DNA from: Fimbriimonas sp.
GTDB lineage: Bacteria; Armatimonadota; Fimbriimonadia; Fimbriimonadales; Fimbriimonadaceae
Direction: 5' to 3'
Assembly: GCA_965249475.1 (NCBI GenBank)
Contig: CBDFMD010000003.1
Location: 1,868,561 to 1,932,560 of the forward strand
DNA: 64,000 bases
The translations under genes were made by a program, and so were the position numbers. The notes under the pieces were generated by a model. The model was not told the origin of the DNA, ran no database searches, and saw only the letters and a list, made by a program, of their open reading frames with translations. Shown one piece after another: positions 27,819 through 60,709 of the stretch. How positions within the stretch are numbered: position 1 is the first letter of the stretch; every line of letters begins with the position of its first letter.

Positions 27819-27870
27819 CTTCGACCCCGGTCTGGCCTCTCGGTCAGCCGGGGTATGTTCTTCTCAGCCT

Positions 27871-41244: not shown

Positions 41245-41254
<10 letters not shown>
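40364..41254 (+). CDS. Membrane-anchored metallophosphoesterase (YkuE/YaeI-like)
   Basis: GTG start. IAVLGDFHL, VLPGDLI, VPGNHEY, SGHSHGGQ. The last 10 nt overlap tRNA-Arg. Confidence 0.8.
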
Positions 41255-41317
<63 letters not shown>

Positions 41318-41355
41318 CCCTCTTCATCACCCCCCTTCTAGGTTCCTTCGGGGCT

Positions 41356-42516: not shown

Positions 42517-42571
42517 AGGAGAATGGGTTTACCCCCGATCCGGCAGGACCGGGGGACGGGCGTCTACCTAG

Positions 42572-47036: not shown

Positions 47037-47756
47037 CTAGTCCTCGAGATCGTCGGGGGTGATGCCCTTGGCGACGTACCAGTGCCGCGGCCCGAGGCGG
47101 TAGTGGCGGGTGACGCCGACGAGCCGGGCGACCACGCCCCAGCCCTCCCCGTCCTCCGGCCCGGCGCTCTCGGGGTTCACGGGCGCGAGGCGCGGCTGGC
47201 CGGTGTCGTCGAAGACGAGCTGCTTCACCGTGCAGCCGTGGTCGCCCTTGCGCTGGGCGAGGACGATGACGCCGGGGCGCGGGGCGTGGTCGTGCTCCCA
47301 GACCGTCTCGTCCCCCTGCCGGAGCGCCGGGTAGCAGCTCGATCCGACGACGCGCCCGACGTAGCGCCGGGGGCCGACGAACTCGGGCTCGACCTCGATG
47401 GGCTCCTCTCCGTCGAGGGGCTCGCCCCAGGTCTCGGACGTCGGGACGTTGCCCGCGAAGGGAAGGGTGGGGCGCACGCGGGCGACGACCGGGCGGAGGT
47501 TCTCGGCGCCGGGCTGGAGGTCGCTCGGGAACAGCTCGCGGAGCCGGGCGGCGATCTCTTCGGGGATGGCGCCGCCCCCCTCGTAGTGGGTGACGCTCTG
47601 GCGCGAGACGAGGATCCTCTCGGCGAGATCTTCCTGCGAAAGCCCGTGCCTCGCGCGAAGGGCCCGGAGCCGACGTCCCTGCTCTCCTCCCCGATCCTGC
47701 GGCCCCGGCACGGGAAAAGGATGCGCCCTCGTACATTGGCGCGTTGACAACACCAT
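47037..47756 (-). CDS. CI/LexA-like phage repressor (XRE HTH plus S24 peptidase domain)
   Basis: GRRLRALRARHGLSQEDLAERILVSRQSVTHYEGG (HTH). VVGSSCYPALRQGDETV (Ser of the GDSM-like motif). CTVKQL (Lys). The ATG at 47756 is preferred over the track's TTG at 47792, which coincides with a -35 box. Confidence 0.8.
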   Translation of the reverse strand: MVLSTRQCTRAHPFPVPGPQDRGGEQGRRLRALRARHGLSQEDLAERILVSRQSVTHYEGGGAIPEEIAARLRELFPSDLQPGAENLRPVVARVRPTLPFAGNVPTSETWGEPLDGEEPIEVEPEFVGPRRYVGRVVGSSCYPALRQGDETVWEHDHAPRPGVIVLAQRKGDHGCTVKQLVFDDTGQPRLAPVNPESAGPEDGEGWGVVARLVGVTRHYRLGPRHWYVAKGITPDDLED

Positions 47757-47773
47757 GCAGGGGAGTGTATTGT
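47744..47773 (+). promoter_or_regulatory. Putative rightward early promoter (PR-like)
   Basis: TTGACA (47744-47749), 18-nt spacer, TATTGT (47768-47773). The Cro-like ATG is at 47786. Confidence 0.45.
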
Positions 47774-47792
47774 GTCTCTGGCACCATGCCAA
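47764..47792 (-). promoter_or_regulatory. Putative repressor-maintenance promoter (PRM-like) giving a leaderless repressor mRNA
   Basis: Minus strand: TTGGCA (47792-47787), 17-nt spacer, TACACT (47769-47764), then 7 nt to the ATG at 47756. Its -10 overlaps the PR-like -10. Confidence 0.4.
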
Positions 47793-48130: not shown

Positions 48131-48561
48131 AGCGAAAGCCCACCGAACCCCTCGCCCCCGAGCCGCCGGCTCCCGATCCGAAGGCGATCCTCGCCGCCGC
48201 GCTGAAGGCGGCCGCCGACGCCGAGCGGTGCGCGGTCTTCGCGACGCTCGTGCGCCCCGACGGCCGCCGCTTCCAGATCGCCGTCCCCGAACCGAACGTC
48301 GCGATCTCGCTCGAGGACGTCGCCGTCGCGATGGGGGAGACCCTCGCCAAGGCCGCACGGCTCGCCGGGCTGGACCCGGCGTCGCCGAAGATCGGGCCCT
48401 CCCTCATCGAGGCGTTCTCGGCGGGGCTCGGGATCCGGACGCTCGCGGCGACGCGGGAGCAGATCCCCGCGATCGCGGCGGCGCTGGAGGGCGCGGACGC
48501 CGGAGAGTCGGGCGTCGAGATCGGGGCCGGCGTCCCCATGCCGAAGGTGGCGCGTGGCTGA
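48127..48561 (+). CDS. Hypothetical phage protein upstream of RecT (144 aa)
   Basis: ATG at 48127 in an ATGA overlap. No recognisable motif. Confidence 0.5.
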   Translation: MKRKPTEPLAPEPPAPDPKAILAAALKAAADAERCAVFATLVRPDGRRFQIAVPEPNVAISLEDVAVAMGETLAKAARLAGLDPASPKIGPSLIEAFSAGLGIRTLAATREQIPAIAAALEGADAGESGVEIGAGVPMPKVARG

Positions 48562-49801
48562 GGCTCCGCTCGGGCTCGGTTCGGGGGGCGAAGGCGCGGA
48601 CGGGATCGACGCGCGCTGGGAGGCGAACCTCGACCTCATCCGCCGGACGGTGGCGCAAGGGGCGAGCCCCGACGAGCTCCGCCTCTTCCTCTACACCGCC
48701 AAGCGCGCCGGGCTCGACCCGCTCGCCAAGCAGATCTACTACGTGCGCCGGCAGGGGAAGGGGACGGTGCAGGTCGGGATCGACGGGCTCCGCCTCATCG
48801 CCGACCGCACGGGCCGGTACGCGGGAGGGGACGCCGCCGAGTTCCTCGGGGAGACGGACGCCGGGATGCCCGCGATCGCCCGCGTCACCGTCTACAAGAT
48901 GGTCGGCGGGGTGCGGTGCCCGTTCTCGGCGACGGCGCGCTGGGAGGAGTACTACCCCGGCGAGGCGCAGGGCTTCCAGTGGCGCAAGATGCCGCACGTG
49001 ATGCTCGCGAAGGTGGCCGAGGCGCTCGCCCTGCGCCGCGCCTTCCCCGCGGACCTCTCCGGGCTCTACGTCACCGAGGAGATGGCCCAGGCCGGAGATC
49101 CGGAGCGCGAGGCGACGTCCGGGACGGCCCCGCCCGCCCCCGATCCCTCTCCGGATCCCTCTCCCGATCCCTCTCCGGGGCCGTCCCCGGCGGGGAGGGC
49201 GAAGGGGGGTCCCGGGCTCCCGCCCGCGCCCGAAGGTGTCTCGGCGTTCGGGTACCGTCCGCCGAAGTGGCCGAGCGCGAAGATGCTCGGGGAGCCGGCG
49301 ACGGAGGACCAGTTCCGCATGCTCCGGGTGAAGGCGGGCGAGCGGCACCTCGCCGAGCAGGAGGCGTCGTCCGTGCGCGAGGCGGTCCTCGCGGCCTACG
49401 CCCTGGACGAGGACGCGAGCAAGGGGGCGATCTCGCTCGTCATCGACTTCCTCCAGGCGGCGAGCCCGGCGCAGCTCGACGCGGCGCGGGGGGTGAGGAA
49501 GCCCGCCGGCGCGGCGACTCCCGCGCCGGACGAGGAGGGCGGGCGCGAGCTGCGGCCGCTCCCCGGCATGTCGGCGGACGTCGCGTGGTTCGCGGCGCTT
49601 CCCGGCTCGACCGAGGGGCAGATGGGGCGGACGAGGGCGGCGGGGAAGGTCCTCGGCCTCACGGCGCAGTTCCTCCTCGGGCGCGAGCGGCGGGAGGGCG
49701 GGCGCGAGCCGGAGGCGATCGTCCGGGCGATCGAGGCGCGCGCGGCGGCGAAGGCGGGCGCCTCTCCCGGCCCCGCCGCGGAAGGGGAGGCGGGGCGGTG
49801 A
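48554..49801 (+). CDS. recT: RecT/Bet-family single-strand annealing recombinase with long C-terminal extension
   Basis: LFLYTAKRAGLDPLAKQIYYVRRQGKGTVQVGIDGLRLIADRTGRYAG...WRKMPHVMLAKVAEALALRRAFPADLSGLYVTEEM. This is followed by a PDPSPDPSPDPSPGPSP linker and about 220 further residues. Confidence 0.8.
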   Translation: MAEAPLGLGSGGEGADGIDARWEANLDLIRRTVAQGASPDELRLFLYTAKRAGLDPLAKQIYYVRRQGKGTVQVGIDGLRLIADRTGRYAGGDAAEFLGETDAGMPAIARVTVYKMVGGVRCPFSATARWEEYYPGEAQGFQWRKMPHVMLAKVAEALALRRAFPADLSGLYVTEEMAQAGDPEREATSGTAPPAPDPSPDPSPDPSPGPSPAGRAKGGPGLPPAPEGVSAFGYRPPKWPSAKMLGEPATEDQFRMLRVKAGERHLAEQEASSVREAVLAAYALDEDASKGAISLVIDFLQAASPAQLDAARGVRKPAGAATPAPDEEGGRELRPLPGMSADVAWFAALPGSTEGQMGRTRAAGKVLGLTAQFLLGRERREGGREPEAIVRAIEARAAAKAGASPGPAAEGEAGR

Positions 49802-50103
49802 CGCGCCTTGCGCGGATCCTCGACCGCTACGATCGGAAGGAGGCCCCCCGTTCGGGGGACTTCCCGTTCCTCGTCCGGATCGCGCGGGCCTCGGTGCGGG
49901 CGCGGCACGCGGCGGGGCGGTACTACCGCTCGCCGAAGAGCGCGGCGGAGAAGCGGGAGCTGCTCGACGCGGCGAAGGCGGCGGAGTGCGCGCTCGACGC
50001 GCTCCTGAACGAGGAGGAGAACCCGCCTCCGGCGGACCTCTTCGCCCTCGCGGACGCGGAGGGCGGGATCGATCGCGCCTCGCCCGCGGGAGGCCTCTCC
50101 TAG
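49798..50103 (+). CDS. Hypothetical phage protein (101 aa)
   Basis: GTG at 49798 in a GTGA overlap. VTRLARILDRYDRKEAPRSGDFPFLVRIARASVRARHAAGRYYRSPKSAAEKRELLDAAKAAECALDALL... Confidence 0.45.
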   Translation: MTRLARILDRYDRKEAPRSGDFPFLVRIARASVRARHAAGRYYRSPKSAAEKRELLDAAKAAECALDALLNEEENPPPADLFALADAEGGIDRASPAGGLS

Positions 50104-50104
50104 G

Positions 50105-50386
50105 ATGGCGCGGGGGCTCACGGACCTTCAGCGGCGGGTCCTCCTCTTCGTGATGGCGAGCACGATCGAGGAGGGGGCGTCGCCGACCCTGCGGGACATC
50201 GGGTCGCACCTCGGGATCCGGTCCGTGCGCGGGCCGGAGGAGCACGTGAAGGCGCTCGTGCGCAAGGGGTTCCTCGCCCGGCGCGACTCGGGGGCGCGGG
50301 CGATCGTCGTGCTCCGGGACGCGGACGGGGCGCGGGTGCGGCTGGCGTTCGTGCCGGTCGAGGGCGAAGAGGAGAGGCGAGGGTAG
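50105..50386 (+). CDS. LexA N-terminal DNA-binding domain protein (no peptidase domain)
   Basis: 93 aa. MARGLTDLQRRVLLFVMASTIEEGASPTLRDIGSHLGIRSVRGPEEHVKALVRKGFLARRDSGARAIVVL aligns by eye with E. coli LexA residues 1-70 (LTARQQEVFDLI...G.[28 protein letters not shown]). Confidence 0.75.
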   Translation: MARGLTDLQRRVLLFVMASTIEEGASPTLRDIGSHLGIRSVRGPEEHVKALVRKGFLARRDSGARAIVVLRDADGARVRLAFVPVEGEEERRG

Positions 50387-50405
50387 CGATGGCCGGGGGG
50401 GAGGC

Positions 50406-51551
50406 TTGAGCTACCGGATCATCCACGCGGTGGGGCGCTCGACGCTCACGGCGACCGAGGGGTTCGTCCTCATCATGCTCGCGAACTGCGCGGCGAAGGA
50501 GGGGGACGCGGTGCGCGTGAAGAACGACCGGCTCATGCAGCTGTGCAACCTCTCGGACAAGGGGGTGAGGAACGCGATCGCGGCGCTGAAGGCGCGGGGC
50601 GTCGTCGTGGAGGTGGCGCGGCACGCGAACAACGTGGCCGAGTACCGGATCGACGTCGAGGCGATCGCGCCCCCGCCTTCCGCCGACGCTCCGGCACGTG
50701 GTGCCGAAGAGGGCACTCCGGCACCACGTGCCGAACCACTCCGGCACGACGTACCGGGCACTCCGGCACCACGTGCCGAACCACTCCGGCACGACGTACC
50801 GGGCACTCCGGCACCACGTGCCGAACCACTCCGGCACGACGTACCGGGCACTCCGGCACCACGTGCCGAACCCTATAGAGAGGACTCTCCAGACCTTTAT
50901 CCAGACCTCTCTTCCAGACCCTTATCCAGAGAGAGAGGGGAGGAGGCGCGCGCGGGCGCCCCGCCGGGGGAAGGGGAAGCCGATCCCCACCCCGCTCCGG
51001 GGGACGACCCCGCGACGGCCCGGCTCCTCGCCGCCGTCCTCGCCGCCGTCCGGGAGGTGCCCGCCTGGCGCTCCCTCGGCGAGGCGGACCTGCCCGATCT
51101 CCCGTTCGTGCGCCGGCAGATCGGCCTGGCCACCGAGGCCGGCGCCGACGAGGCGCGGCTCCTCGACGCGATCGCCGGGTTCGGGGCGCACTACCGGCGG
51201 TGCGGCGGGCGCGGCTCCCCGATCGCCGACCTCGCGAGCTGGCTCACGAAGCGCCGCGCCGAGTGGGCGAGGGAGCGCGAGGCGATCGACCGGCGGGCGA
51301 GCAACGCCCGCCGCGACGAGATCTTCGAGGGCGCGGCCAGGCGCCGGAACGCGCCGGACCCGCCGGCGGGAGCCGAACGCCCCGACCGGCCCGAGCGCCC
51401 CGCGAGGCTCCTCCCCCGGCGCCAGGGGTTCGTCCTCGCCGGCGGGGAGATCCGCGAGAAGTTCGAGGGGGACGACCTTCCGGGCCGGGTGCACGGGACG
51501 ATGGAGGGGGCGCGGGAGGCGCTGAAGGCGCTCAAGGGCCTCGCCGCCTGA
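50406..51551 (+). CDS. Phage replication initiator-like protein (N-terminal winged-helix) containing an internal iteron array
   Basis: LTATEGFVLIMLANCAAKEGDAVRVKNDRLMQLCNLSDKGVRNAIAALKARGVVVEV is a wHTH. It is followed by GTPAPRAEPLRHDVP repeated 3.6 times. Position is between the recombination and late modules. Confidence 0.55.
   Translation: MSYRIIHAVGRSTLTATEGFVLIMLANCAAKEGDAVRVKNDRLMQLCNLSDKGVRNAIAALKARGVVVEVARHANNVAEYRIDVEAIAPPPSADAPARGAEEGTPAPRAEPLRHDVPGTPAPRAEPLRHDVPGTPAPRAEPLRHDVPGTPAPRAEPYREDSPDLYPDLSSRPLSRERGEEARAGAPPGEGEADPHPAPGDDPATARLLAAVLAAVREVPAWRSLGEADLPDLPFVRRQIGLATEAGADEARLLDAIAGFGAHYRRCGGRGSPIADLASWLTKRRAEWAREREAIDRRASNARRDEIFEGAARRRNAPDPPAGAERPDRPERPARLLPRRQGFVLAGGEIREKFEGDDLPGRVHGTMEGAREALKALKGLAA
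50688..50872. repeat. Iteron array: 3 identical 45-bp units plus a partial 4th and a degenerate leader copy
   Basis: Unit ggcactccggcaccacgtgccgaaccactccggcacgacgtaccg at 50712, 50757 and 50802, with a partial copy at 50847-50872. CTCCGGCAC occurs 8 times at 22/23-bp spacing. Each copy sits in a short inverted repeat (CGGCAC-CAC-GTGCCG). Confidence 0.9.
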
Positions 51552-51609
51552 ACGCGTCCGGCGTCTGCATCTTGCTCGCGTCCTTGGAGGACGTTCAGAA
51601 TAAGTCCAC

Positions 51610-52227
51610 GTGCCTACCGCGCCTCCGTCCACCGATCTCCCGCACCCCCTCTGGCTCGACATCGACCGCCAGCTCTGGGGGATCGCGCGGCGGTACCAGG
51701 GCGGCCGCGCCGAAGCCTACGCCGAGGATCTCCACGGCGAGCTCGTCCTCCACGCGCTCCTCACGATCCGGGAGCGCGGGCCGGACGTGCCGGCGAGCTG
51801 GATCGTGAGGCCGGCGCAGAACCGCCTCGTCTCGTGGCTCCGCAAGCAGGGGGTGCGGAACCTCGACCTCCCGCAGATCGCCGACCCGCGCCGCCGCTCG
51901 GCCCCGCCCCTCACCCGGCTCGACGCCTTCGACCTGGAGGCCGACTGGTACGAGGCGATGTCCTCGGACGTGACTTCCGAGGACGCCCGCCGCGGCGCCG
52001 AAGCGGCGGCGGTGCCGAGCCACGAGGAGCGCATCCTGGACCATCTCGCGGGAACGGCGGACGCGCGGCGCGCGGCGGCGGCGCTCGCAGGATCGCTCTC
52101 CGGGGCACTCCTGGAGGGCGGGGGCGTTCCCCTTCGCCGCGCGTCCCTCGGACGGTGGCGGCGCACGCTCGCGCGCACGGGTCCTCCGCGCGCGCCGCGC
52201 GAACGTCTAAATGTAGGGAGCGGATAG
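51610..52227 (+). CDS. Sigma-70 region-2-like protein (candidate phage late-gene sigma/regulator)
   Basis: GTG start. LWGIARRYQGGRAEAYAEDLHGELVLHALLTIRERGPDVPASWIVRPAQNRLVSWLRKQ follows the sigma70_r2 pattern (AEDL..E...... W......N....WLRK). The C-terminal part is only weakly r4-like. Confidence 0.4.
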   Translation: MPTAPPSTDLPHPLWLDIDRQLWGIARRYQGGRAEAYAEDLHGELVLHALLTIRERGPDVPASWIVRPAQNRLVSWLRKQGVRNLDLPQIADPRRRSAPPLTRLDAFDLEADWYEAMSSDVTSEDARRGAEAAAVPSHEERILDHLAGTADARRAAAALAGSLSGALLEGGGVPLRRASLGRWRRTLARTGPPRAPRERLNVGSG

Positions 52228-52530
52228 ATGGCGGCGGCGAGGGCGAAGACGGGCACGGGGACGAAGACCGGGGGGCGCGCGAAGGGCACCCCGAACAAGA
52301 GCACCGTGGCGAAGAGGGAGGGGATCGAGAGGCTCCTCGACTCGGGTTGCGACCCGTACCGGGCGATGTACGAGCTCGCCCAGCATCCCGACACGCCCCT
52401 CGACGACCGGATGTCGCTCCTCCGGACGCTCATGAAGTACTCGTACCGCGAGCTCCTCGCCGAGTCGGACCCCAACGCGGCAGGGGGCGGGTCGGAGACG
52501 AGCATCATCGCGATCGCGCTGAACAAGTAG
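52228..52530 (+). CDS. Small basic phage protein (possible DNA-binding / small-terminase-like)
   Basis: 100 aa. N-terminal GGRAKGTPNKST basic motif. Lies upstream of the packaging genes. Confidence 0.4.
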   Translation: MAAARAKTGTGTKTGGRAKGTPNKSTVAKREGIERLLDSGCDPYRAMYELAQHPDTPLDDRMSLLRTLMKYSYRELLAESDPNAAGGGSETSIIAIALNK

Positions 52531-52532
52531 GG

Positions 52533-52552
52533 GCGCGTCGTTTCCGGCGATG
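52533..52552 (+). promoter_or_regulatory. Conserved 20-nt late-region element, copy 1 (GCGCGTCGTTTCCGGCGATG)
   Basis: Exact 20-mer. Its terminal ATG is the start codon of ORF 52550..53083. Confidence 0.8.
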
Positions 52553-53083
52553 GCCGCGAGCGCCCCCACCCCCGAAGACACCGCCGACCTGAAGAAGCAG
52601 ATCGCCGACCTGAAGAGCGAGGTCGCCGCCAGTGGCAAGGATCTCGCCGCGGCGCGCGCCAAGATCCGCGACCTGGAGGGCGCGGCGATCGAGAACGGAC
52701 GCCTCGTCGGCGAGCAGGAGGCGCAGAACCGGGACCTCGCCGAGAAGGTGAAGTCCCTTGAGGGGAAGGCGGAGGAGGAGGGAGAGGCCCCGTTCCCCCT
52801 CGATCTCGTCCCCCAGGAGCCGGACAACCCGCTGAACCTCGTCCACGCGAGCGAGTCCGTCCCGATGGAGCACGGCGACTTCGGCTACCACCGCGCCGTC
52901 AGTTGCGCCCAGGACGCGGGCTACCAGATCGACGCGCTCCGGACCCGCGCCCTCGGCGCCGTGAACGCGGCGTTCGCGCTCGAGCGGCTCGGCCAGGTCC
53001 GCCAGACCGGAGAGCCCGAGTGGCGGGGCTTCCCGCCGTTCGACCCTTCGAGGTCGCTCCACGTCGCGGTGTGGATGGAGTAG
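52550..53083 (+). CDS. Hypothetical phage coiled-coil protein (177 aa)
   Basis: DLKKQIADLKSEVAASGKDLAAARAKIRDLEGAAIENGRLVGEQEAQNRDLAEKVKSLEGKAEEE. The start codon is embedded in the conserved element. Confidence 0.55.
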   Translation: MAASAPTPEDTADLKKQIADLKSEVAASGKDLAAARAKIRDLEGAAIENGRLVGEQEAQNRDLAEKVKSLEGKAEEEGEAPFPLDLVPQEPDNPLNLVHASESVPMEHGDFGYHRAVSCAQDAGYQIDALRTRALGAVNAAFALERLGQVRQTGEPEWRGFPPFDPSRSLHVAVWME

Positions 53084-54981
53084 TGCCCGACCGCCTCAAC
53101 ACCCTCCAGACCGGCCATCTCAGCGCGGCCTCGCCCTACGACGCCCAGCTCTCGGCGCTCGGGGACGGCTCCCACGAGCTCGCCGGGCTCCAGCTCCTCG
53201 GCGATCTTCCGGGGCACCTCGACCGCGTGAGCTGGCCCGACGTCCTCGCCGCGGGCGAGGCGCTCTTCGTCGCCTCGCGCGACGGAGTGGCGGGCACGTC
53301 GCAGTGGACCCCGTGGAGCTCCGCCTCGACGCCCGCGCAGACCGGCGCGGGAACGGCGTTCGCGATCGGGCCGCCCGATACGGCCTCGCTGACGGCGGGG
53401 CAGAGCACGAAGGCGCTGGCCCGCGCGGGCTACCTGCGGGGGCTGGTGCCGGCGGGGGCCGCGGTGTACGAGGTGCAGGCGCGCCTCGCCGAGGCGAACG
53501 CCCCGGGGCTCTCGCGCTCGGCCTCGGTCTCGACCCCCCTCGGCACCGGGCCGTCGCAGACGGGGACGCCGGGCGGGGCGACGACCCTCCCCTTCGCCTC
53601 GGGGCCGATGACCGACCGCGCGGGGATCGAGGCGGGCGGGCTCGCGGCGGCGCTGAACGTCTCCTACCCCGCGGGCGGGGCGCAACAGACGGCGCCGACG
53701 ATCGCGGACGGCGGGCCGGCCCTCCCCCAGGGGGCGACGGTCTCGACGGACTGGAGCCTCGCCATCGCCGACGACCTCCGCGGCTACCGCTCCGGCACCG
53801 ATCTCGCCGAGGTCGATGCGACGTCCTCCGTGCCGGTCGGCGACGGGACCGGCACGACCACGAACTTCCACGGCGGGGTGACCGGACAGACGGCCTGGGT
53901 TCAGGAGCGGACGTTCCGGATCGCCTCGAGCCGAGGGGCGACGCAAGGCGGGGTCCCGTTCTACGTCCAGGCGCGGCTCGCGGGCAAGTTCACGGTCGTG
54001 GTCACGTGGGTCGGGTCGGGGCCGCCCCCGGCGACGGTGACGCTCGCGATCCAGTCGCGCGCGGCCTCCTACTACGAGGATCCGGCGACGACCACGCGGG
54101 CCGGCGACAACGGCTACGGCGATCCGGACGGGGTGCTCTCCTCGCCGGACGGGCTCGTGCAGATGCCGACGTCGTTCGCCGGCCGCACCGGCGGGCGCAC
54201 CGTGGTCGTCCCCGTCGTCGGCGGCGTCGCGACGCTCGACGTGCCGGTGTCCTCGACGGGGCGCAAGACCCTCGCCTCGCCCGCGCAGGGCCAGATCTTC
54301 TCGACGTGGGCCGAGGTCGTCCTCGGCGCCTCGCCCATCCAGACCCAGGCGCCGCTCGCCTATTCGGGGACGGTGGAGATGCGGGCGCGGTACGGGACGG
54401 GCGGCACCGGCGCCGGGTCGGCCACCGTGCGGCGCACCGTCCTCCGGCGCCGGGCGGCGGTGAGGATCGACGTCCCCGCGGGCGAGCTCCTCAACCTCGC
54501 GCAGGGGTACGACGGCGCGCCGTGCCTCCGTTTCCTCGTCCCCGACGACGACCGGACGCTCGCCCTCTCGGCGAAGATCGAGGTCCCGCCGGGGGCCGAG
54601 CCCGCGCTCTGGTTCGTCGGGCTCGCCTCGGGGGCGCCGCTGACGAGGACTGGCCTCGCCGCCGTGGACGCGATCGGCTTCCTCGGCGGGGCGCTCGTCG
54701 GCGGGATCAAGGCCGTCGTGTCTCGGGGGGGTGCCGCGATCCTCGCCGACCTCGGGCCGACGCCCGCCGGGCCGGTCGCCCTCGGCCTTCGCGCGGTGAA
54801 GGGGCCGTCCCGGATCGAGTTCCTCTTCGGCGAGGCGCGGCTCCTCCACCCCACCCTCCTCGTGCCGACCCTCCCGCTCGCCCTCGCCCTCGGCGCCGTC
54901 GCCCCCGCGGCCTCCCCCGCGCGGCTCGATCTGCTCCGCCTCTTCGCGGGCCAGAACGCCGAAGCGCCGAACGTGCGCTGA
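53083..54981 (+). CDS. Large Gly/Ala/Thr-rich phage protein of unknown function (632 aa) immediately upstream of TerL
   Basis: In-frame GTG at 53083, overlapping the previous TAG by 1 nt. High GC3 coding signal. Hydrophobic C-terminal segments (LLVPTLPLALALGAVAPAA). Confidence 0.55.
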   Translation: MPDRLNTLQTGHLSAASPYDAQLSALGDGSHELAGLQLLGDLPGHLDRVSWPDVLAAGEALFVASRDGVAGTSQWTPWSSASTPAQTGAGTAFAIGPPDTASLTAGQSTKALARAGYLRGLVPAGAAVYEVQARLAEANAPGLSRSASVSTPLGTGPSQTGTPGGATTLPFASGPMTDRAGIEAGGLAAALNVSYPAGGAQQTAPTIADGGPALPQGATVSTDWSLAIADDLRGYRSGTDLAEVDATSSVPVGDGTGTTTNFHGGVTGQTAWVQERTFRIASSRGATQGGVPFYVQARLAGKFTVVVTWVGSGPPPATVTLAIQSRAASYYEDPATTTRAGDNGYGDPDGVLSSPDGLVQMPTSFAGRTGGRTVVVPVVGGVATLDVPVSSTGRKTLASPAQGQIFSTWAEVVLGASPIQTQAPLAYSGTVEMRARYGTGGTGAGSATVRRTVLRRRAAVRIDVPAGELLNLAQGYDGAPCLRFLVPDDDRTLALSAKIEVPPGAEPALWFVGLASGAPLTRTGLAAVDAIGFLGGALVGGIKAVVSRGGAAILADLGPTPAGPVALGLRAVKGPSRIEFLFGEARLLHPTLLVPTLPLALALGAVAPAASPARLDLLRLFAGQNAEAPNVR

Positions 54982-54991
54982 CGAGGCGTCC

Positions 54992-56497
54992 GTGCGGATC
55001 GTCGAGCGAGCCTTCTCCGAACACTGCGGCTTCCACCCGAAGCAGACGGCGGCGTACCTCGCGATGTACGAGCGCCCGAACGCCCGCGTCCTCGCCGGCG
55101 GCTCCGGCTTCGGGGGGAAGAGCCACCTGCTCCGGGGCGCGGCCGTCGGTCACTCGATGTGGCTCGCGCGGGAGGGGTTCTACCTTCCGAGCTACTTCTG
55201 CACGTCCACCTACGGCGTCCTGAAGGATCGGCACTACGGCAAGTTCATGCTGGAGTGGGGCGAGTGGGGGCAGATCCGCGAGAACGACAAGGAGTTCGGC
55301 GCGTGCTTCCGGTTCGACCACCCGAAGCTCCCCCCGATCCTCTTCCGCAACCTCGACGACCCGAACAAGCGGCGCGGCGCCGAAGGGGCGGCCGCGTTCG
55401 TGGACGAGATCACCGAGATGGTCCTCGCCGCGTGGGGCGGGATCGCGTACATGGTGCGCGCCCCCGGGCCTTCGCACCGCCCCATCCTCGCCGCGACGAA
55501 CCCGGACGGGATCGGCCACGCCTGGGTCAAGGCGCTGTGGCGCCCGCACCTGCCGCTCCGCTCGGAGACGGGCGAGTCGCGCCTCTCGCCCCACCCGAAC
55601 CCCCTCGTCCGCCCCGAGGACTACATCTACGTCCCCTTCCTCCCCAAGGACAACCCGCTCTACGACGAGGAGACGTTCCGGGGGCTCATCGCGCACCTGC
55701 CGCCCCACGTCCAGCGGGCGCGCCGGGACGGGAGCTGGAACGCGCCGGAAGGGGCGCGCTTCGAGAACCTCGCCGAGGAGACGCACGCGTTCTCCCTCGC
55801 CGAGCGGTTCCCGGCGGGGGTGCCGAGCGGGCTCCCGATCTACATGGGGATCGACTACGGCCTCCGCGCCCCCTACGCGGGGCTGTGGGCGTTCGTGGAC
55901 GGCGACGGCGACGTCTTCGTCTACCGCGAGGACTACCGCCCGGGGCTCACCGCCAAGCGCCAGGCCGAGCGCATCGCCGAGCTCACGAGCCCCACCGAGC
56001 GCGTCCGGGGGTGCTTCCTCGACCCGGCGATGTGGCAGACCTTCCCCGGCCACGAGGGGCCGACCGACAAGAGCGCGCACGCGCTCTACGAGGAGGTCCT
56101 CTGCGACCTCCCGAACTTCCCGCGCTCTCTCACGAAGGGCTACAACACGAGCCGCGCCCAGAACCTCATGACGCTCGACCGCTTCCTCCAACGCGACAAC
56201 GGAGAGCCGGACGTGTGGATCGAGGCGGGGTGCCAGAACCTCTGGCGCGAGCTCACGGGGGCGGTCTACCCGAAGGGGACGGTCGCCAAGGACGCGAGCG
56301 AGGACATCGACCCGTCGTGCCCGGACCACGCGATCACGGCGCTCTACTACTTCCTCGCCTCGCGCCACCGGGCGCCGCGCGTCGTTTCCGGCGATGCCCT
56401 CCCGACCCCGGAGGCGATGGCCGCGGCGCTCGCCAAGGAGCGCGAGAAGGCCTCGGCCCGCAACTGGAAGCGGCATCTGAAGAGCGAGAAGAGATGA
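54992..56497 (+). CDS. terL: Terminase large subunit
   Basis: GTG start, 501 aa. Walker A VLAGGSGFGGKS. Walker B/coupling AAAFVDEITE. C-terminal nuclease-like region (GIDYGLRAPYAGLW...DHAITALYYF). Confidence 0.85.
   Translation: MRIVERAFSEHCGFHPKQTAAYLAMYERPNARVLAGGSGFGGKSHLLRGAAVGHSMWLAREGFYLPSYFCTSTYGVLKDRHYGKFMLEWGEWGQIRENDKEFGACFRFDHPKLPPILFRNLDDPNKRRGAEGAAAFVDEITEMVLAAWGGIAYMVRAPGPSHRPILAATNPDGIGHAWVKALWRPHLPLRSETGESRLSPHPNPLVRPEDYIYVPFLPKDNPLYDEETFRGLIAHLPPHVQRARRDGSWNAPEGARFENLAEETHAFSLAERFPAGVPSGLPIYMGIDYGLRAPYAGLWAFVDGDGDVFVYREDYRPGLTAKRQAERIAELTSPTERVRGCFLDPAMWQTFPGHEGPTDKSAHALYEEVLCDLPNFPRSLTKGYNTSRAQNLMTLDRFLQRDNGEPDVWIEAGCQNLWRELTGAVYPKGTVAKDASEDIDPSCPDHAITALYYFLASRHRAPRVVSGDALPTPEAMAAALAKEREKASARNWKRHLKSEKR
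56377..56396 (+). promoter_or_regulatory. Conserved 20-nt late-region element, copy 2 (inside the terL 3' end)
   Basis: Exact 20-mer. Its ATG (56394) opens only a 28-codon out-of-frame ORF ending at 56480, 14 nt before the next gene. Confidence 0.8.
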
Positions 56498-56862
56498 GCC
56501 TGCGAAACGCCCGCGCCGAGAAGCGCCCCTTGTCGCTCCCGATCCTCGTCCTGGGGCTCGCGGCGACGGTGTACTCCCACTCCTACTCGAAGGCCCCCAT
56601 CCGGGGCTTCGGGAACCGGTCGCTCGTGGGATACGGGGTGACGCCGGGGGAGGACCGGTACACGATGGCGGCCGAGACGTTCGAGGTCGATGGGGAGATC
56701 GTCGAGGCGCTCCGGATCTCCATCGAGACGGGGGTCCACCGGCCCGAGACGGCGGGGTACGAGGAGATCGTCGTCCCCTTCGCGGCGCTCGAGACGTTCG
56801 GGGGGGGCGAGACCGAGGTCCTCGTGCCGCTCGCGCCCCTCTCCGCGGGCGAGGGCGGCTAG
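56494..56862 (+). CDS. Hypothetical phage protein with N-terminal TM helix (122 aa)
   Basis: ATG at 56494 in an ATGA overlap with the terL stop. PLSLPILVLGLAATVY is a TM helix. Confidence 0.5.
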   Translation: MSLRNARAEKRPLSLPILVLGLAATVYSHSYSKAPIRGFGNRSLVGYGVTPGEDRYTMAAETFEVDGEIVEALRISIETGVHRPETAGYEEIVVPFAALETFGGGETEVLVPLAPLSAGEGG

Positions 56863-56863
56863 G

Positions 56864-57124
56864 GTGCCAATCTACCCCTACTCGTGCCCGGGTTGCGGCG
56901 CGGCGCGGGAGATCCTCGTGCGCTCGCGCGAGGAGGCCGTCCCGTGCGCGTGCGGGGCACGGATGGCGCGGGGGTTCGGGGCGGCGGTCGGGCGCGTGGC
57001 CCCCTGGCTCCGCGACGAGAACTACGAGGGCAACGAGCGCCAGCGGGCGCATCTGCGGAGGCCGGACGTGCGGAAGGCGATCCGGGACGGGCGTCTCGCG
57101 CCGGCGGGGCGGGGAGAGGACTAG
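56864..57124 (+). CDS. Zinc-ribbon protein (FmdB-like CxxC...CxC)
   Basis: GTG at 56864. VPIYPYSCPGCGAAREILVRSREEAVPCACGARM... Confidence 0.55.
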   Translation: MPIYPYSCPGCGAAREILVRSREEAVPCACGARMARGFGAAVGRVAPWLRDENYEGNERQRAHLRRPDVRKAIRDGRLAPAGRGED

Positions 57125-58993
57125 GTGGCCCTCGCCGAGCGGGAGAGGCCGAGCGCCGGGATGACGGACGTCGAAGAGGCGGCCGAGGGCGGGGCGCCGG
57201 ACCGGGAGACGGGGCCGGGCGAGGGCGGGGCGCGATCGACGGAGCATCTGACGAGCGCGGCGCGCATCCGGGCGCGGGTCTCGACGGGGGCGGCGATCGA
57301 GCCGTGGCGCCGGAAAGTGAAGACGATGCGCGCGCTCGTGGCGGGCGACTGGTCGGCGATCGACGGCGGGGGAGCGGCGAAGGCCCCTCTCGCCGAGCGC
57401 GAGCGGAGCGTGGACAAGCGCGGCGCCGCCCACCTCGCGAAGCTCATGGTGAGCGACTTCGAGGAGGGGGCGAGCAACCCGCTCCTGGAGACGCTGAAGA
57501 CGCTCGTGATGCAGGTGAGCTACCGCTCGCCGGAGATCGAGTTCGAGGACGCGACCCCGATGGAGGCGGACATGAACGCGCTCTACCTCAAGCGCCGGTT
57601 CGGGCCGCGCCCGGGCGGATGCGACGCGCCCCACCACATGAAGCTCGCCCTCATCGATTACCTCGTCGCGGCGATGGGCTGGGTGTGGGCGGGCTCGGAC
57701 GGGGGGCGCCCCGACGTCCGGTACGTGGACGCGCTCGACGTGAGCTGGGACCTCGACGCGGCGCTCGTCACGGACATCCGCTGGGTCGCCGTCCACGTCG
57801 TCGGCACCGCCGGCGATTGGGCCGACCTCTTCGGCGAGGAGGCGTTCGCCGCCGAGATCGAGGACGCGCGGGACGAGAAGGATCCGGGGATCTGGCGCGA
57901 GACGCTCGTGCAGCTCGTCTGGTACTGGGACACGGACGGGGAGCTCGGGACGCACGCGGTCTTCCGGGCGGGCTCGGGGAACGGGGGCTACGAGCTCGCG
58001 GGAGAGCCGCTCGAGTGGACGGAGAACCCGCACTACCTGCGGACCGACGACGTCGAGCAACCGTTCCTGCCGCTCCTGCCGATCTACTTCCTCCAGCTTC
58101 CGGGGGTGCGCTTCCCGGTTTCGCCGGTGGAGATGATGATCGCGGCGCAGCTCGGGCTCCGGGAGGTCGAGGGGACGATCCGCTCGATCTCGAAGATCGC
58201 GCCGTGGATCGACGTCGAGGAGGGGGCGTACGAGGAGGACCAGCTCACGGAGCTCGAGGACGGGGAGCCGGGGGCGATCATCGAGCGGACGAAAGGGATG
58301 CCGCCGGCCCAGCACCTCATGGGGCCGGACATCCCGGCGAACCTCCTCCAGTGGCGCGACATCCTCAAGCAGGGGCTCACCGCGATGGGCGGGAGCAACC
58401 CCTACGCGAGCGGGAACAAGATCGACGGGATCGCGTTCGCCTCCGAGGTCTCGGCGATCGAGGGGGCGGCGGGGCTCACGGCGGCGACGGTGGCGAGCGA
58501 CCACGCCGGGCACTACCAGCGCGCGGCGCGGGCGACGCTCGCGAACGGGGCGAACTACGACGGCCTGCCTCTGGTGCTCGTGCTCGACGACACGCCGATG
58601 ACGTTCGGGACGGAGGACCCGATCGGGCCGTACCTGCGCCCCGACGCGCACGCGCAGGTGAGCGAGGACGCGCTCGTGTACGCGAGCAAGGACCAGCGCA
58701 TCGGGCGCGCGGCGGCGCTCTACGACCAGGCGCTCAAAGGCGCGCCGTTCCTCGGCCCCGTGCCGGTCCAGAAGGCGTTCAAGGGCGTCCTCGAGGCGAG
58801 CGGCGAGCGGGACGTGGCCTCGTGGTTCGCCTCGCCCGCCGCTCCTGACGGCGGCGCCGCGGGCGAGGCGGATCCGGTCCTCGGAACTTCGGCCCCCGGT
58901 GCTCCGGGCGGGGGCGCGGCTCCGGCGGGAGAGGGGGGTTCGCCCCTCTCGACGTCGGCGCAGATCCGGACGGAGCAGGAATCCAACGCATGA
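57125..58993 (+). CDS. Probable portal protein
   Basis: 622 aa. First large ORF after terL and before the scaffold/capsid genes. Assignment rests on synteny and size only. Confidence 0.55.
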   Translation: MALAERERPSAGMTDVEEAAEGGAPDRETGPGEGGARSTEHLTSAARIRARVSTGAAIEPWRRKVKTMRALVAGDWSAIDGGGAAKAPLAERERSVDKRGAAHLAKLMVSDFEEGASNPLLETLKTLVMQVSYRSPEIEFEDATPMEADMNALYLKRRFGPRPGGCDAPHHMKLALIDYLVAAMGWVWAGSDGGRPDVRYVDALDVSWDLDAALVTDIRWVAVHVVGTAGDWADLFGEEAFAAEIEDARDEKDPGIWRETLVQLVWYWDTDGELGTHAVFRAGSGNGGYELAGEPLEWTENPHYLRTDDVEQPFLPLLPIYFLQLPGVRFPVSPVEMMIAAQLGLREVEGTIRSISKIAPWIDVEEGAYEEDQLTELEDGEPGAIIERTKGMPPAQHLMGPDIPANLLQWRDILKQGLTAMGGSNPYASGNKIDGIAFASEVSAIEGAAGLTAATVASDHAGHYQRAARATLANGANYDGLPLVLVLDDTPMTFGTEDPIGPYLRPDAHAQVSEDALVYASKDQRIGRAAALYDQALKGAPFLGPVPVQKAFKGVLEASGERDVASWFASPAAPDGGAAGEADPVLGTSAPGAPGGGAAPAGEGGSPLSTSAQIRTEQESNA

Positions 58994-59538
58994 AGATCAT
59001 CGAACTCACCAGGCCCTTCGCCTCGCATCCCCGCGACGCGCCCCCCTCCCTCATCGTGATGCACGCGACCGCCGGGGCGAACGCCTCGGGCGCGATCGAG
59101 ACGCTCCGGGAGAAGGGGTACGGCTACCACTACATCGTGAAGGACGAGGACGAGGGGGACGGCACCGTGCTCAAGTGCGTGGCCACCGACCGGGTGTGCT
59201 ACCACGCGGGGAACTCCTACGGCCCCCGGGAGGAGGCGCGCGGCGTCTCGCGCGTCCAGGGGGAGGGCGCGCGGTTCGTCGCCGGATGCTCGGTGAACGG
59301 GTACTCGATCGGGATCTCGTTCGTGAACATGGACGACGGGCGGGACCCGTTCTCGCCGGCGCAGACGCAGGCGGCGCGCGCGCTCGTGGCGGCGCTCCGG
59401 GCGGCGATCCCGACGATCTCGGCGATCACGACCCACGCGATCGTGAGCCCGCGGCGCAAGGTGGACCCGCTGGGGTTCGACATCGACGCGCTGGGGAAGG
59501 CGACGCGCCTCCCCGTCTGGAGGCCGAGAGGTGGCTGA
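58990..59538 (+). CDS. N-acetylmuramoyl-L-alanine amidase (Amidase_2/PGRP, T7-lysozyme-like) endolysin
   Basis: LIVMHATAG...GYGYHYIV...CYHAGNS...NGYSIGISFVN...FSPAQTQAARALVAAL...ITTHAIVSPRRKVDP. Confidence 0.8.
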   Translation: MKIIELTRPFASHPRDAPPSLIVMHATAGANASGAIETLREKGYGYHYIVKDEDEGDGTVLKCVATDRVCYHAGNSYGPREEARGVSRVQGEGARFVAGCSVNGYSIGISFVNMDDGRDPFSPAQTQAARALVAALRAAIPTISAITTHAIVSPRRKVDPLGFDIDALGKATRLPVWRPRGG

Positions 59539-60674: not shown

Positions 60675-60709
60675 TCCCCTTTCGCCCCGAGTCCCTTCTC
60701 GCGGGGGCC

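What the first reader, a model, noticed from the sequence alone, without database searches (positions are those of the whole stretch)
50688..50935. Candidate phage origin of replication: iteron array embedded inside the replication-initiator-like gene
**Observation.**
- Three perfectly identical 45-bp direct repeats lie inside ORF 50406..51551, together with a partial fourth and a degenerate leading copy.
- In the protein they encode GTPAPRAEPLRHDVP repeated.
- At DNA level the array contains eight copies of CTCCGGCAC spaced 22/23 bp apart, which is about two helical turns.
- Each copy sits within a short inverted repeat (CGGCAC-CAC-GTGCCG or CCGGCAC-GACG-TACCGG).
- The array is followed by a locally AT-richer stretch with three CCAGACC repeats (50873-50935).

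**Interpretation.** This is the lambda O / ori-lambda layout: iterons with dyad symmetry inside the initiator gene, next to an easily melted region. Perfect identity of the units argues for selection or concerted evolution at the DNA level rather than the protein level.
Basis: partly seen in the sequence, partly recalled or inferred. Interest (0 to 1): 0.62.

Follow-up and report, generated by a model that had tools for sequence, protein, structure and literature searches.

The report
Phage replication origin inside initiator gene
A prophage in an uncultured Armatimonadota bacterium very probably carries its replication origin inside its own lambda-O-like initiator gene: eight binding-site repeats plus an easily melted tract, a known layout, where relatives in several phyla show that the DNA sites and not the encoded peptide are conserved.

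Summary
The 45-bp unit occurs 3.6 times at 100% identity. There are eight dyad-symmetric sites (CGGCAC-N3-GTGCCG / CCGGCAC-N3-GTACCGG), 22-23 bp apart. A 45-57% GC tract with a 12-bp repeat follows, in a 72% GC genome. All of it lies in the linker of a 381-aa protein whose N-terminus is an HTH_36 winged helix, the lambda O type.

The origin interpretation is strongly supported by comparison, though not by experiment.
- GC3 falls from 0.97 upstream and 0.95 downstream to 0.49 across the array.
- Distant homologues (25-45% identity) from viral contigs, metagenomes, cultured phages and genomes of Actinomycetota and Alpha-, Beta- and Gammaproteobacteria carry the same kind of array at the same position.
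- In the GGCAC class there are 68 sites inside 19 genes against 1 in 185 kb of flanks.
- The same DNA word is read in all three frames (GTTCR / RHHVP / PAPRA).
- A low-GC tract follows the array in 24 of 24 loci.
- In one locus the reading frame is broken but the array is kept.

The element is a new member of a known kind (the lambda O / ori-lambda layout). The C-terminal domain is an orphan, and no helicase or loader gene was found among the ORFs tested. Binding and origin firing remain untested.

The parts
50406..51551 (+). Initiator gene (381 aa, TTG start preceded by GGGGGGAGG). Architecture: N-terminal winged helix, unstructured linker, helical C-terminal domain.
   Evidence: ORF. PHROG 270/391 'replication initiation (O-like)', E 1.8e-8 and 5.4e-8. 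Weak Pfam HTH_36. GC3 is 0.99 and 0.96 in the two domains, in this frame. The AF2 secondary-structure layout shows 84-201 unstructured, at low confidence.
50406..50687 (+). Coding region of the winged-helix DNA-binding domain (residues 1-94). The putative recognition helix is LSDKGVRNAIAALKARG.
   Evidence: AF2 model built with a 35-sequence alignment has pLDDT 88.9 and an H-H-E-E-H-H-E-E winged-helix topology. Foldseek best hits are the plasmid initiator RepA N-domains 4pql/4pt7/5kbj and MarR-like wHTH proteins, all weak. All 35 aligned homologue N-termini hit PF13730.
50692..50706 (.). Iteron 1 (leading, degenerate copy): CGGCACGTGGTGCCG.
50711..50872 (.). Array of a 45-bp unit x3.6 at 100% identity. 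It holds iterons 2-8: type A, CGGCACCACGTGCCG, at 50719-50733, 50764-50778, 50809-50823 and 50854-50868; type B, CCGGCACGACGTACCGG, at 50741-50757, 50786-50802 and 50831-50847. Centre-to-centre spacing is 22-23 bp.
   Evidence: GC3 is 0.52, and 7 of the 15 codons are ones used at under 7% among synonymous codons in the window's genes. Depth is about 3.1 times that of the neighbours in an independent assembly.
50873..50935 (.). Low-GC tract directly after the last iteron, proposed as the DNA-unwinding element. It contains the 12-bp-period repeat TCCAGACCTTTA x3.5 (50888-50930), CCAGACC x3 and TTATCCAGA x2.
   Evidence: GC is 0.53-0.57. Minimum GC over 40 bp is 0.45, against 0.72 for the window. 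TRF result. TTATCCAGA: 2 observed vs 0.03 expected. GC3 is 0.43. An equivalent tract is present in 24 of 24 related loci.
50937..51551 (+). Coding region of the C-terminal helical domain. It is an orphan, inferred to recruit the host replication machinery.
   Evidence: No Pfam, PHROG or PDB match. No homologue stretch aligned to it in the search of 1.8 billion representatives. GC3 of 0.96 shows it is coding in this frame.
47744..47773 (+). Promoter-like site (TTGACA-18-TATTGT) facing rightward, opposite the cI-like repressor gene. It is the inferred early promoter whose transcript crosses the origin.
   Evidence: 2 sites found vs 0.0 expected. This is a consensus match only, so its function is inferred.

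Best explanation
Positions 50689-50935 are the vegetative replication origin of a tRNA-Arg-integrated prophage. The origin is embedded in the linker-coding part of the phage's own lambda-O-like initiator gene.

Proposed mechanism:
1. After induction, the early rightward transcript produces the 381-aa initiator.
2. Dimers of its N-terminal winged-helix domain bind the eight dyad-symmetric iterons. The iterons are spaced about 22.5 bp apart, roughly two helical turns, so the dimers sit on nearly the same face of the DNA. This builds an 'O-some'-like nucleoprotein complex.
3. The resulting strain opens the adjacent 45-57% GC tract with its 12-bp repeats.
4. The orphan C-terminal domain recruits a replicative helicase. 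This is presumably the host's, because no phage helicase or loader gene was found among the ORFs tested.

The three identical 45-bp units are a recent tandem expansion. A unit of 22+23 = 45 bp (15 codons) is the smallest duplication that keeps both the site phasing and the reading frame.

Shown here: the anatomy, DNA-level constraint, family-wide conservation of the sites, their spacing and the low-GC tract, and the link to initiator genes. Inferred: binding, unwinding, helicase recruitment and actual origin firing.
For: 1. Identity of the gene. The N-terminus matches PHROGs 'replication initiation / O-like' at E 1.8e-8 and 5.4e-8. All 35 aligned homologue N-termini are Pfam HTH_36, which is lambda O's N-terminal domain; ori-lambda lies inside O (PMC5509034; PMC7466680).

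2. DNA-level constraint. GC3 is 0.99 in the N-terminal domain, 0.52 in the array, 0.43 in the low-GC tract and 0.96 in the C-terminal domain. The CAI-like index is 0.10-0.18 against 0.7-0.99. The same GC3 dip occurs in 22 of 23 related loci (0.50 vs 0.74 and 0.75; Wilcoxon p = 5e-7 and 1e-6).

3. Three-frame reading. In relatives the same word, GGCACNNNGTGCC, is translated as GTTCR, RHHVP or PAPRA, sometimes within a single gene. Pooled frame usage is 14/16/38.

4. Specific location. There are 68 sites inside 19 initiator genes against 1 in 185 kb of flanks, always just after the wHTH domain.

5. Protein-blind test. A scan for two copies of the 15-mer found 14 loci. In 13 of them the spanning ORF matches the family N-terminal HMM (E 3e-26 to 3.5e-6), and none of the 10 other-frame ORFs does. 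In the 14th locus (L017) the wHTH ORF ends at a stop codon just before an intact array and AT tract.

6. Spacing. 33 of 49 neighbour spacings are 20-24 bp; others are near 32-34, 45 and 65 bp.

7. Low-GC tract. It starts within a few bases of the last iteron in 24 of 24 loci (mean minimum GC40 0.40 vs locus mean 0.64; 6% of random stretches are as low). It usually contains 2-4 short direct repeats.

8. Context in relatives. Neighbouring genes include DnaB helicase, RusA, and the order cI-cro-cII-O-like-DnaB in Pseudomonas phage PP9W2. Five cultured phages annotated 'replication protein O' or 'O-like' have lineage-specific arrays at the same place.

9. Precedent for expansion. Stx phages gained two iterons, which add 13 residues to O (PMC7466680).
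Against: - There is no experimental evidence for this family: no binding, replication or marker-frequency data. The public runs are held only as contigs, so no coverage test was possible.
- The window's own HTH_36 score (21.7 bits) is below Pfam's cutoff of 25.
- The C-terminal domain has no similarity to lambda O's C-terminal domain or to anything else.
- No P-like loader or DnaB gene was found among the prophage ORFs tested, so the helicase-recruitment step is pure inference.
- Covariation between the recognition helix and iteron class is inconclusive.
- The homologue sample is biased towards proteins that share the linker peptides.
- The prophage could be defective.
Confidence: 0.78

Rival explanations
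1. The sites are real initiator-binding sites, but their main role is regulatory: autorepression or roadblock of the gene, initiator titration, or handcuffing-type copy control. Replication would start elsewhere, or in a different way such as recombination-dependent replication through the neighbouring RecT.
For: Iterons in plasmids serve both initiation and control. In Stx phages only four of six iterons are bound strongly (PMC7466680). A RecT gene lies 600 bp upstream. No helicase or loader gene was found.
Against: A low-GC tract with short repeats abuts the array in 24 of 24 loci. An origin-unwinding element explains this; a pure operator does not. No other comparable repeat array exists in the 64-kb window.
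Confidence: 0.1
2. The repeat is an incidental, slippage-prone, proline-rich low-complexity linker. The DNA repeats have no function of their own.
For: The region is predicted unstructured. It encodes a Pro/Ala/Arg-rich peptide. Tandem repeats expand by slippage, and perfect identity shows only recent duplication.
Against: - The same DNA word is read in three frames in relatives.
- GC3 collapses to about 0.5 in a genome with GC3 near 0.95, and in 22 of 23 loci.
- The 22-23-bp spacing is conserved and is not a multiple of 3.
- There are 68 sites in genes against 1 outside.
- The array is retained in L017 where the frame is broken.
- 18 of 44 homologues show the peptide signature, against 2.2% of composition-preserving shuffles.
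Confidence: 0.04
3. The array is bound by a different protein or serves another DNA transaction. Candidates are a partition centromere, a packaging (pac) site, or an operator for the small LexA-like protein encoded just upstream (50105-50386).
For: The Foldseek list includes TubR centromere-binding wHTH proteins. A LexA_DNA_bind-domain protein is encoded immediately upstream. The terminase gene lies about 4 kb downstream.
Against: Across loci the array always accompanies the HTH_36 domain, whatever the neighbours are. The small upstream genes and the terminase are not consistently adjacent. Integrated prophages do not need partition. The neighbouring genes in relatives are replication genes (DnaB).
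Confidence: 0.05
4. The element acts as RNA: a series of GC-rich hairpins in the mRNA that modulates translation or stability.
For: The single strand folds far better than shuffles (z = -8.9). Each dyad would form a 6-bp hairpin.
Against: The fold propensity follows directly from the dyads. No Rfam family reaches even a third of its gathering score. An RNA role does not explain the helical-turn spacing or the AT tract. In L017 the array lies beyond the stop codon.
Confidence: 0.02

Closest known systems
Bacteriophage lambda O protein / ori-lambda, and lambdoid and Stx phages (P27, 933W)
   Same: - The origin lies in the middle of the initiator gene.
- Each iteron is an imperfect inverted repeat bound by initiator dimers, and an AT-rich tract follows immediately (PMC7466680).
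- The N-terminal domain is HTH_36 (PMC5509034).
- The gene sits in an early rightward operon opposite a cI-type S24 repressor.
- Iteron number varies by duplication, which lengthens the protein.
   Different: - Eight 15-17-bp GC-rich sites (CGGCAC-N3-GTGCCG) instead of four 19-bp sites of unrelated sequence.
- The C-terminal domain is unrelated to O's, and no P-like loader gene is adjacent.
- The 'AT-rich' tract is only 45-57% GC.
- The host is Armatimonadota.
- Sequence similarity to the O family is detectable only at profile level.
O-like initiators of cultured phages: Pseudomonas PP9W2, Burkholderia phiE125 gp60 / phi1026b, Bordetella PHB09 'replication protein O', Arthrobacter KellEzio gp40, Aeromonas 56 gp24
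   Same: They share the HTH_36 N-terminal domain family and a repeat array plus low-GC tract at codons about 90-160. PP9W2 uses the same GGCAC-N3-GTGCC word.
   Different: N-terminal domains are 25-45% identical among members of the wider family. Other lineages use other words: AAAGGGTGCA, CCCCGTCA, CCCCGCAGA. Many relatives have GAACCATCA repeats in the low-GC tract, where the window has TCCAGACC. Some encode a DnaB next to the gene. I found no experimental origin mapping for any of them.
RepA_N-type plasmid initiators of Gram-positive bacteria (PDB 4pql, 4pt7, 5kbj)
   Same: These are the best structural matches to the N-terminal model, with a dimeric wHTH that binds iterons. From my own knowledge, not tested here, RepA_N replicons also carry their origin iterons inside the rep coding sequence.
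   Different: The similarity is only at fold level (E 2.7e-3, TM 0.64, 16% identity). There is no RepA_N Pfam hit. These are plasmid replicons, not phage ones.

Membership tests
lambda O / ori-lambda-type replicon (initiator gene containing its own origin) | N-terminal HTH_36 (PF13730) winged-helix DNA-binding domain | tested here: met
   PHROG 391 'replication initiation O-like' at E 5.4e-8 and PHROG 270 at E 1.8e-8. The window's HTH_36 hit has E 1.8e-4 and 21.7 bits, just under the 25-bit cutoff, while 35 of 35 aligned homologues hit it (best 5e-16). The AF2 model is a wHTH with pLDDT 88.9.
lambda O / ori-lambda-type replicon (initiator gene containing its own origin) | Four or more iterons with dyad symmetry inside the initiator ORF, between the N- and C-terminal domains | tested here: met
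   Eight dyads lie at 50692-50868, which is codons 96-155 of 381.
lambda O / ori-lambda-type replicon (initiator gene containing its own origin) | AT-rich (easily melted) tract immediately flanking the iterons | tested here: met
   Minimum GC over 40 bp is 0.45, starting 6 bp after the last iteron, against 0.72 for the window. The tract is conserved in 24 of 24 related loci.
lambda O / ori-lambda-type replicon (initiator gene containing its own origin) | C-terminal domain homologous to lambda O's, which interacts with P | tested here: not met
   Residues 185-381 have no Pfam, PHROG or PDB hit. No homologue stretch aligns there.
lambda O / ori-lambda-type replicon (initiator gene containing its own origin) | Adjacent gene for a P-like helicase loader or a replicative helicase | tested here: not met
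   The downstream gene is a sigma-70 region-2-like protein. None of the ORFs tested between 41.3 and 59 kb matches DnaB, DnaC or P. Some relatives do have DnaB next to the gene.
lambda O / ori-lambda-type replicon (initiator gene containing its own origin) | Initiator dimers bind the iterons and replication initiates there | not testable with these tools
   This needs EMSA or footprinting, plasmid replication assays or marker-frequency sequencing. The public runs are available only as contigs.
RepA_N plasmid replicons | RepA_N domain detectable by sequence | tested here: not met
   No RepA_N Pfam hit. There is only weak fold similarity to 4pql/5kbj.
Iteron plasmids with Rep_3 / RepE / pi-type initiators | Rep_3-family initiator with tandem winged-helix domains, and iterons outside the rep gene | tested here: not met
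   No Rep_3 hit. There is a single wHTH domain. The iterons lie inside the gene.

The most novel reading that the evidence does not exclude
The window's element belongs to an undescribed clade of HTH_36 phage initiators that spans several phyla (Armatimonadota, Actinomycetota, and Alpha-, Beta- and Gammaproteobacteria). Although their DNA-binding domains are only 25-45% identical, the members share one conserved iteron word (GGCAC-N3-GTGCC at about 22.5-bp phasing). Most also share a short repeat in the unwinding tract (GAACCATCA). Both words are overprinted on the linker in any of the three reading frames. This would make the recurring peptides GTTCR / PAPRA / RHHVP a by-product of a DNA code. 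It would also be an unusual case of an origin specificity conserved across phyla, whereas iterons are normally specific to each replicon.
Probability: 0.5. Interest if true: 0.6.

Novelty: new member of a known kind. Interest (0 to 1): 0.5.

Why it matters
- **A concrete origin candidate in a poorly known phylum.** This gives a testable origin and initiator for a prophage of Armatimonadota, a phylum with almost no characterised phages or genetic tools. A gene-plus-origin cassette of about 1.2 kb is the natural starting point for a replicon in such hosts.
- **A simple annotation rule.** In HTH_36 'O-like' genes, one can look just after the winged helix for dyad repeats phased at about two helical turns, followed by a low-GC tract.
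- **An explanation for recurrent linker peptides.** GTTCR, PAPRA, RHHVP, EPS and NHQ are the three-frame read-out of DNA sites. This is a clear example of a cis-acting DNA code overriding codon usage inside a gene.
- **A question about specificity.** Conservation of one iteron word across very divergent initiators and hosts raises questions about origin specificity and cross-incompatibility among unrelated temperate phages.

Tried and rejected
- **Word-indexed protein searches.** The full protein and the N-terminal domain returned only the protein itself or nothing. Protein-seeded locus scans of genome and viral contigs found nothing, as did tblastn against the phage collection. Only the exhaustive HMMER search found relatives.
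- **Other look-ups.** The exact-sequence contig look-up for the window's protein found no record. A single 20-mer iteron scan of genome contigs gave 0 hits.
- **The search for related loci with the N-terminal alignment** failed because the alignment is too diverse. An unbiased protein-first DNA sample therefore rests on the 5 cultured phages and 7 metagenomic loci.
- **Marker-frequency or excision evidence** was not obtainable. The runs are held only as contigs, and the listed 'joints' have sides of only 20-23 nt and look spurious.
- **Known RNA family** rejected: the best Rfam hit is 42.7 bits against a gathering score of 168.
- **DnaA boxes in the low-GC tract.** TTATCCAGA x2 is one mismatch from TTATCCACA, and the pair is unexpected by chance. 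However, relatives carry unrelated words there and the host's DnaA-box consensus is unknown, so this stays a speculation.
- **Covariation between recognition helix and iteron class.** The Arg in S-E-R-x-V-R is replaced by Gln in the three non-GCAC classes, but also in one GGCAC lineage, so the result is inconclusive.
- **Structure.** The full-length single-sequence AF2 model was too poor for fold search (pLDDT 51.7). The PDB sequence profile search gave only generic wHTH regulators.
Full report
**1. Observation**

The region was read directly. Tandem Repeats Finder reports a 45-bp unit, 3.6 copies, 100% matches, at 50711-50872. Its score of 324 is the highest of 135 arrays in the window. The repeat finder shows three identical copies (50711, 50756, 50801) and a fourth that diverges after 27 bp.

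CTCCGGCAC occurs eight times between 50689 and 50859, with spacings of 27, 23, 22, 23, 22, 23 and 22 bp. Only two other copies occur in 64 kb. The expectation is 1.3 per window, and none of 100 shuffles reaches 10.

Each copy lies in a dyad:
- Type A, CGGCAC-CAC-GTGCCG, occurs four times.
- Type B, CCGGCAC-GAC-GTACCGG, occurs three times.
- The leading copy is CGGCAC-GTG-GTGCCG.

GC drops to 0.53-0.57 at 50850-50939, against 0.72-0.8 nearby. That tract holds a 12-bp-period repeat, TCCAGACCTTTA x3.5. It includes TTATCCAGA twice, against 0.03 expected. An independent public assembly collapses the repeat into a 72-nt contig at about 3.1 times the neighbouring depth, so the array is not an assembly artefact. 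The only corrections are that the first spacing is 27 bp and that 'AT-rich' is relative to the genome.

**2. The gene and its setting**

ORF 50406-51551 (381 aa) has a TTG start behind a GGGGGGAGG Shine-Dalgarno-like run. Its N-terminal ~160 residues match PHROGs annotated 'replication initiation protein' and 'replication initiation O-like', at E 1.8e-8 and 5.4e-8. Pfam gives a sub-threshold HTH_36 hit.

| Coordinates | Strand | Feature |
|---|---|---|
| 41244-41320 | + | tRNA-Arg |
| 41356-42528 | - | tyrosine integrase |
| 47037-47792 | - | cI/LexA-type HTH + S24 repressor |
| 47744-47792 | both | divergent promoter-like pair |
| 48554-49801 | + | RecT |
| 50105-50386 | + | small LexA-DNA-binding-domain protein |
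| 50406-51551 | + | initiator |
| 51610-52227 | + | sigma-70 region-2-like protein |
| 54992-56497 | + | large terminase |

This is a temperate-phage early region with lambda-like logic. The host flank encodes a Pup ligase whose best relatives (up to 75% identity) are Fimbriimonadales / Armatimonadota MAGs.

**3. Evidence that the DNA, not the peptide, is under constraint**

In the ORF's frame, GC3 behaves as follows:

| Segment | GC3 |
|---|---|
| N-terminal domain | 0.99 |
| Array | 0.52 |
| Low-GC tract | 0.43 |
| C-terminal domain | 0.96 |

Seven of the unit's 15 codons (ACT, GCA, CCA x2, CGT, GAA, GTA) are used at 1-6% among synonymous codons in the window's genes. A CAI-like index falls from 0.7-0.99 to 0.10-0.18.

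**4. Relatives**

Word-indexed searches found only the protein itself. An exhaustive HMMER scan of 1.84 billion representatives found about 50 distant relatives (E 1e-7 to 1e-3), aligned over residues 1 to about 150 only. Their linkers carry recurring peptides: GTPAPRA, RHHVP/RHDVP, GTTCR and APDAG.

DNA for seven of them shows why. Directly after the winged helix, each gene holds 4-6 dyads: GGCAC-N3-GTGCC in four loci, TGCAC…GTGCA in two and GGAAC…GTTCC in one. These sites are read in frame 0 (GTTCR), frame 1 (RHHVP) or frame 2 (PAPRA), sometimes within a single gene. No sites occur elsewhere in those loci, apart from one loose-pattern match in L004. Contexts are phage-like: DnaB adjacent in L001 and L002, RusA in L003, a terminase in L006 and an integrase in L001.

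*Protein-blind test.* A scan for two copies of CGGCACCACGTGCCG within 35 bp found 8 viral contigs and 6 genome contigs. The genome contigs come from Frigoribacterium, Dactylosporangium, a Caulobacterales MAG, Camelimonas, Kaistia and an uncultured MAG. In 13 of these 14 loci, an ORF spanning the sites matches an HMM of the family's N-terminal domain (E 3e-26 to 3.5e-6). The domain always ends just upstream of the sites, and none of the 10 ORFs in other frames matches. In the 14th locus (L017) the winged-helix ORF ends at a stop codon immediately before an intact array of four sites and its AT tract. The DNA element therefore persists without coding continuity.

*Pooled statistics.* Over 19 GGCAC-class genes there are 68 sites in the genes against 1 in 185 kb of flanks. 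Frame usage is 14/16/38. Of 49 neighbour spacings, 33 are 20-24 bp, and others fall near 32-34, 45 and 65 bp. A low-GC tract begins within a few bases of the last site in 24 of 24 loci: mean minimum GC40 is 0.40 against a locus mean of 0.64, and 6% of random same-locus stretches are as low. The tract usually holds 2-4 short direct repeats, such as GAACCATCA, GAAGAAGAACCC or GAACAAGCTT. The GC3 dip occurs in 22 of 23 loci (0.50 vs 0.74 upstream and 0.75 downstream; Wilcoxon p = 5e-7 and 1e-6). Among all 44 true homologues, 18 show two or more signature peptides, against 2.2% of composition-preserving shuffles, and 11 use two or more frames.

*Cultured phages.* Five cultured phages whose genes are annotated 'replication protein O' or 'O-like' carry an array and a low-GC tract at the same position. 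The iteron word is lineage-specific:

| Phage | Iteron word |
|---|---|
| Pseudomonas PP9W2 | GGCAC…GTGCC |
| Burkholderia phiE125 | AAAGGGTGCA |
| Bordetella PHB09 | AAAGGGTGCA |
| Arthrobacter KellEzio | CCCCGTCA |
| Aeromonas 56 | CCCCGCAGA |

**5. Structure**

A single-sequence AF2 model of the whole protein is poor (pLDDT 51.7). Its secondary-structure layout is a winged helix (1-83), nothing at 84-201, and helices from 202. With the 35-sequence alignment, the N-terminal domain models confidently (pLDDT 88.9) as a winged helix. Foldseek's best PDB match is the N-domain of a plasmid RepA initiator (4pql; also 4pt7 and 5kbj, a Rep-DNA complex), among MarR-like regulators. All hits are weak (E >= 2.7e-3, TM about 0.6), so they support the fold only. 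Sequence searches of the PDB give only generic wHTH regulators.

**6. Mechanism proposed**

*Shown:* anatomy, DNA-level constraint, conservation, and linkage to the initiator domain.

*Inferred by analogy with lambda:* oriλ lies in the middle of O and consists of 19-bp imperfect inverted-repeat iterons, bound by O dimers into an O-some, plus an AT-rich tract that unwinds (PMC7466680; PMC5509034). By analogy:
- Dimers of the winged-helix domain bind the eight dyads, which are phased at about two helical turns.
- The complex destabilises the adjacent low-GC, 12-bp-repeat tract.
- The C-terminal domain recruits a helicase.
- Transcription from the early promoter-like site at 47744 would cross the origin, as in lambda.

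The three identical units are a recent expansion. A two-site unit of 22+23 = 45 bp is the smallest duplication that preserves both the reading frame and the site phasing. Stx phages offer a precedent: two extra iterons add 13 residues to O.

**7. Differences from lambda, and open points**

- The C-terminal domain has no detectable relative.
- No P-like loader or DnaB gene was found among the ORFs tested.
- The iteron word is unrelated to lambda's.
- Covariation between the recognition helix and iteron class is inconclusive.
- The DnaA-box-like TTATCCAGA pair is speculative.
- The exact iteron word does not appear in the held literature. HTH_36 papers mention replication roles but not this array.

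**8. Rivals**

- A regulatory-only role for the sites remains possible (0.10).
- An incidental low-complexity linker is essentially excluded by the frame, codon, spacing and L017 evidence (0.04).
- Binding by another protein, or a centromere or pac role, is unlikely given the constant association with the HTH_36 domain (0.05).
- An RNA role is unsupported (0.02). The strong single-strand fold (z = -8.9) follows directly from the dyads, and Rfam finds nothing.

**9. Verdict**

Its interpretation is supported by strong comparative evidence but no experiment. The window's element is a new member of a known kind, the lambda O / ori-lambda layout. The family-level pattern appears not to have been described: one iteron word conserved across phyla and overprinted in three frames. 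That pattern is the most interesting by-product of this analysis.

Noticed in passing
window 41244-42528: tRNA-Arg (TCT) at 41244-41320 is followed at once by a reverse-strand tyrosine integrase (41356-42528; PHROG 1, E 2e-38). This is probably the left end (attL) of the prophage. Independent assemblies break contigs at 41280-41320, and one shows an alternative tRNA 3' end as loose read ends at 41293. The right end lies beyond the window or was not located.
   Followed up: partly
window 47744-47792: A divergent pair of sigma-70-like promoter matches (2 found vs 0.0 expected) sits between the cI/LexA-type S24 repressor gene (47037-47792, reverse strand) and the rightward early operon. This resembles the lambda PRM/PR switch region.
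   Followed up: partly
window 50105-50386: A 93-aa protein with a LexA DNA-binding domain (Pfam E 3.8e-14; PHROG 3502 / 362 'transcriptional repressor') is encoded immediately upstream of the initiator. Several relatives also have 70-90-aa ORFs just upstream; phiE125 gp59 is annotated 'replication initiation protein'. Whether these are homologous or act at the origin was not tested.
   Followed up: no
window 51610-52227: A 205-aa protein with a sigma-70 region-2 match (E 2e-5) lies directly downstream of the initiator. It may be a phage-encoded sigma factor for middle or late genes, placed where lambda has P.
   Followed up: no
L002, L003, L006, L007, L010, L013, L019, L022, L023, L024 (tract after the last iteron): A second conserved DNA word, GAACCATCA (or GAACCGTCA / GAACCACCA), is repeated 2-4 times at a period of about 9-12 bp in the low-GC tract of many relatives. 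It too is read in different frames (EPS, NHQ, TIK). The window has TCCAGACC at a 12-bp period instead. The word could be a single-strand binding motif of the unwinding element or a host-factor site.
   Followed up: partly
L017 2330-2520 (Caulobacterales MAG JAFLCU010000006.1): The winged-helix ORF ends at a stop codon just before four well-phased GGCACGTGGTGCC sites and an AT-rich tract, and stop codons interrupt the frames across the array. This is either a split or decayed initiator gene with a retained origin, or a natural variant in which the origin is intergenic.
   Followed up: partly
window 50897-50930: TTATCCAGA occurs twice, 25 bp apart (0.03 expected). It is one mismatch from the canonical DnaA box TTATCCACA. 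Host DnaA may take part at this origin, but relatives lack the word and the host's DnaA-box consensus is unknown.
   Followed up: partly
window 2372-2432: A very G-rich tract (unit AGGGGGGGGCGGGGG x4, about 60 nt, nearly all G on the + strand) lies in the host part of the window. It is a strong G-quadruplex candidate near the start of a 1035-aa BNR/sortilin-repeat protein gene (2642-5749).
   Followed up: no
window 28051-28172: A 15/45-bp periodic repeat (GGGCTGGGCACCACC-like, 2.7-4.3 copies, 70-84% matches) lies inside the long ORF 27793-31113, just downstream of tRNA-Leu (27733-27818). It was not examined.
   Followed up: no
window 49142-49178: A 12-bp repeat (GATCCCTCTCCG x3.1) lies in the C-terminal extension of the RecT-like gene and encodes PDPSPDPSPDPSP. 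It is probably a low-complexity linker, which makes it a useful contrast to the iteron array.
   Followed up: no
window 48880-50740 vs 50843-60999 (run X1): Contig word-depths in run X1 are somewhat higher over the early and replication region (76-86) than over the late region (59) or the chromosomal flank (64). Run X2 shows no such trend. These are assembler depths, too noisy to read as a marker-frequency gradient.
   Followed up: partly
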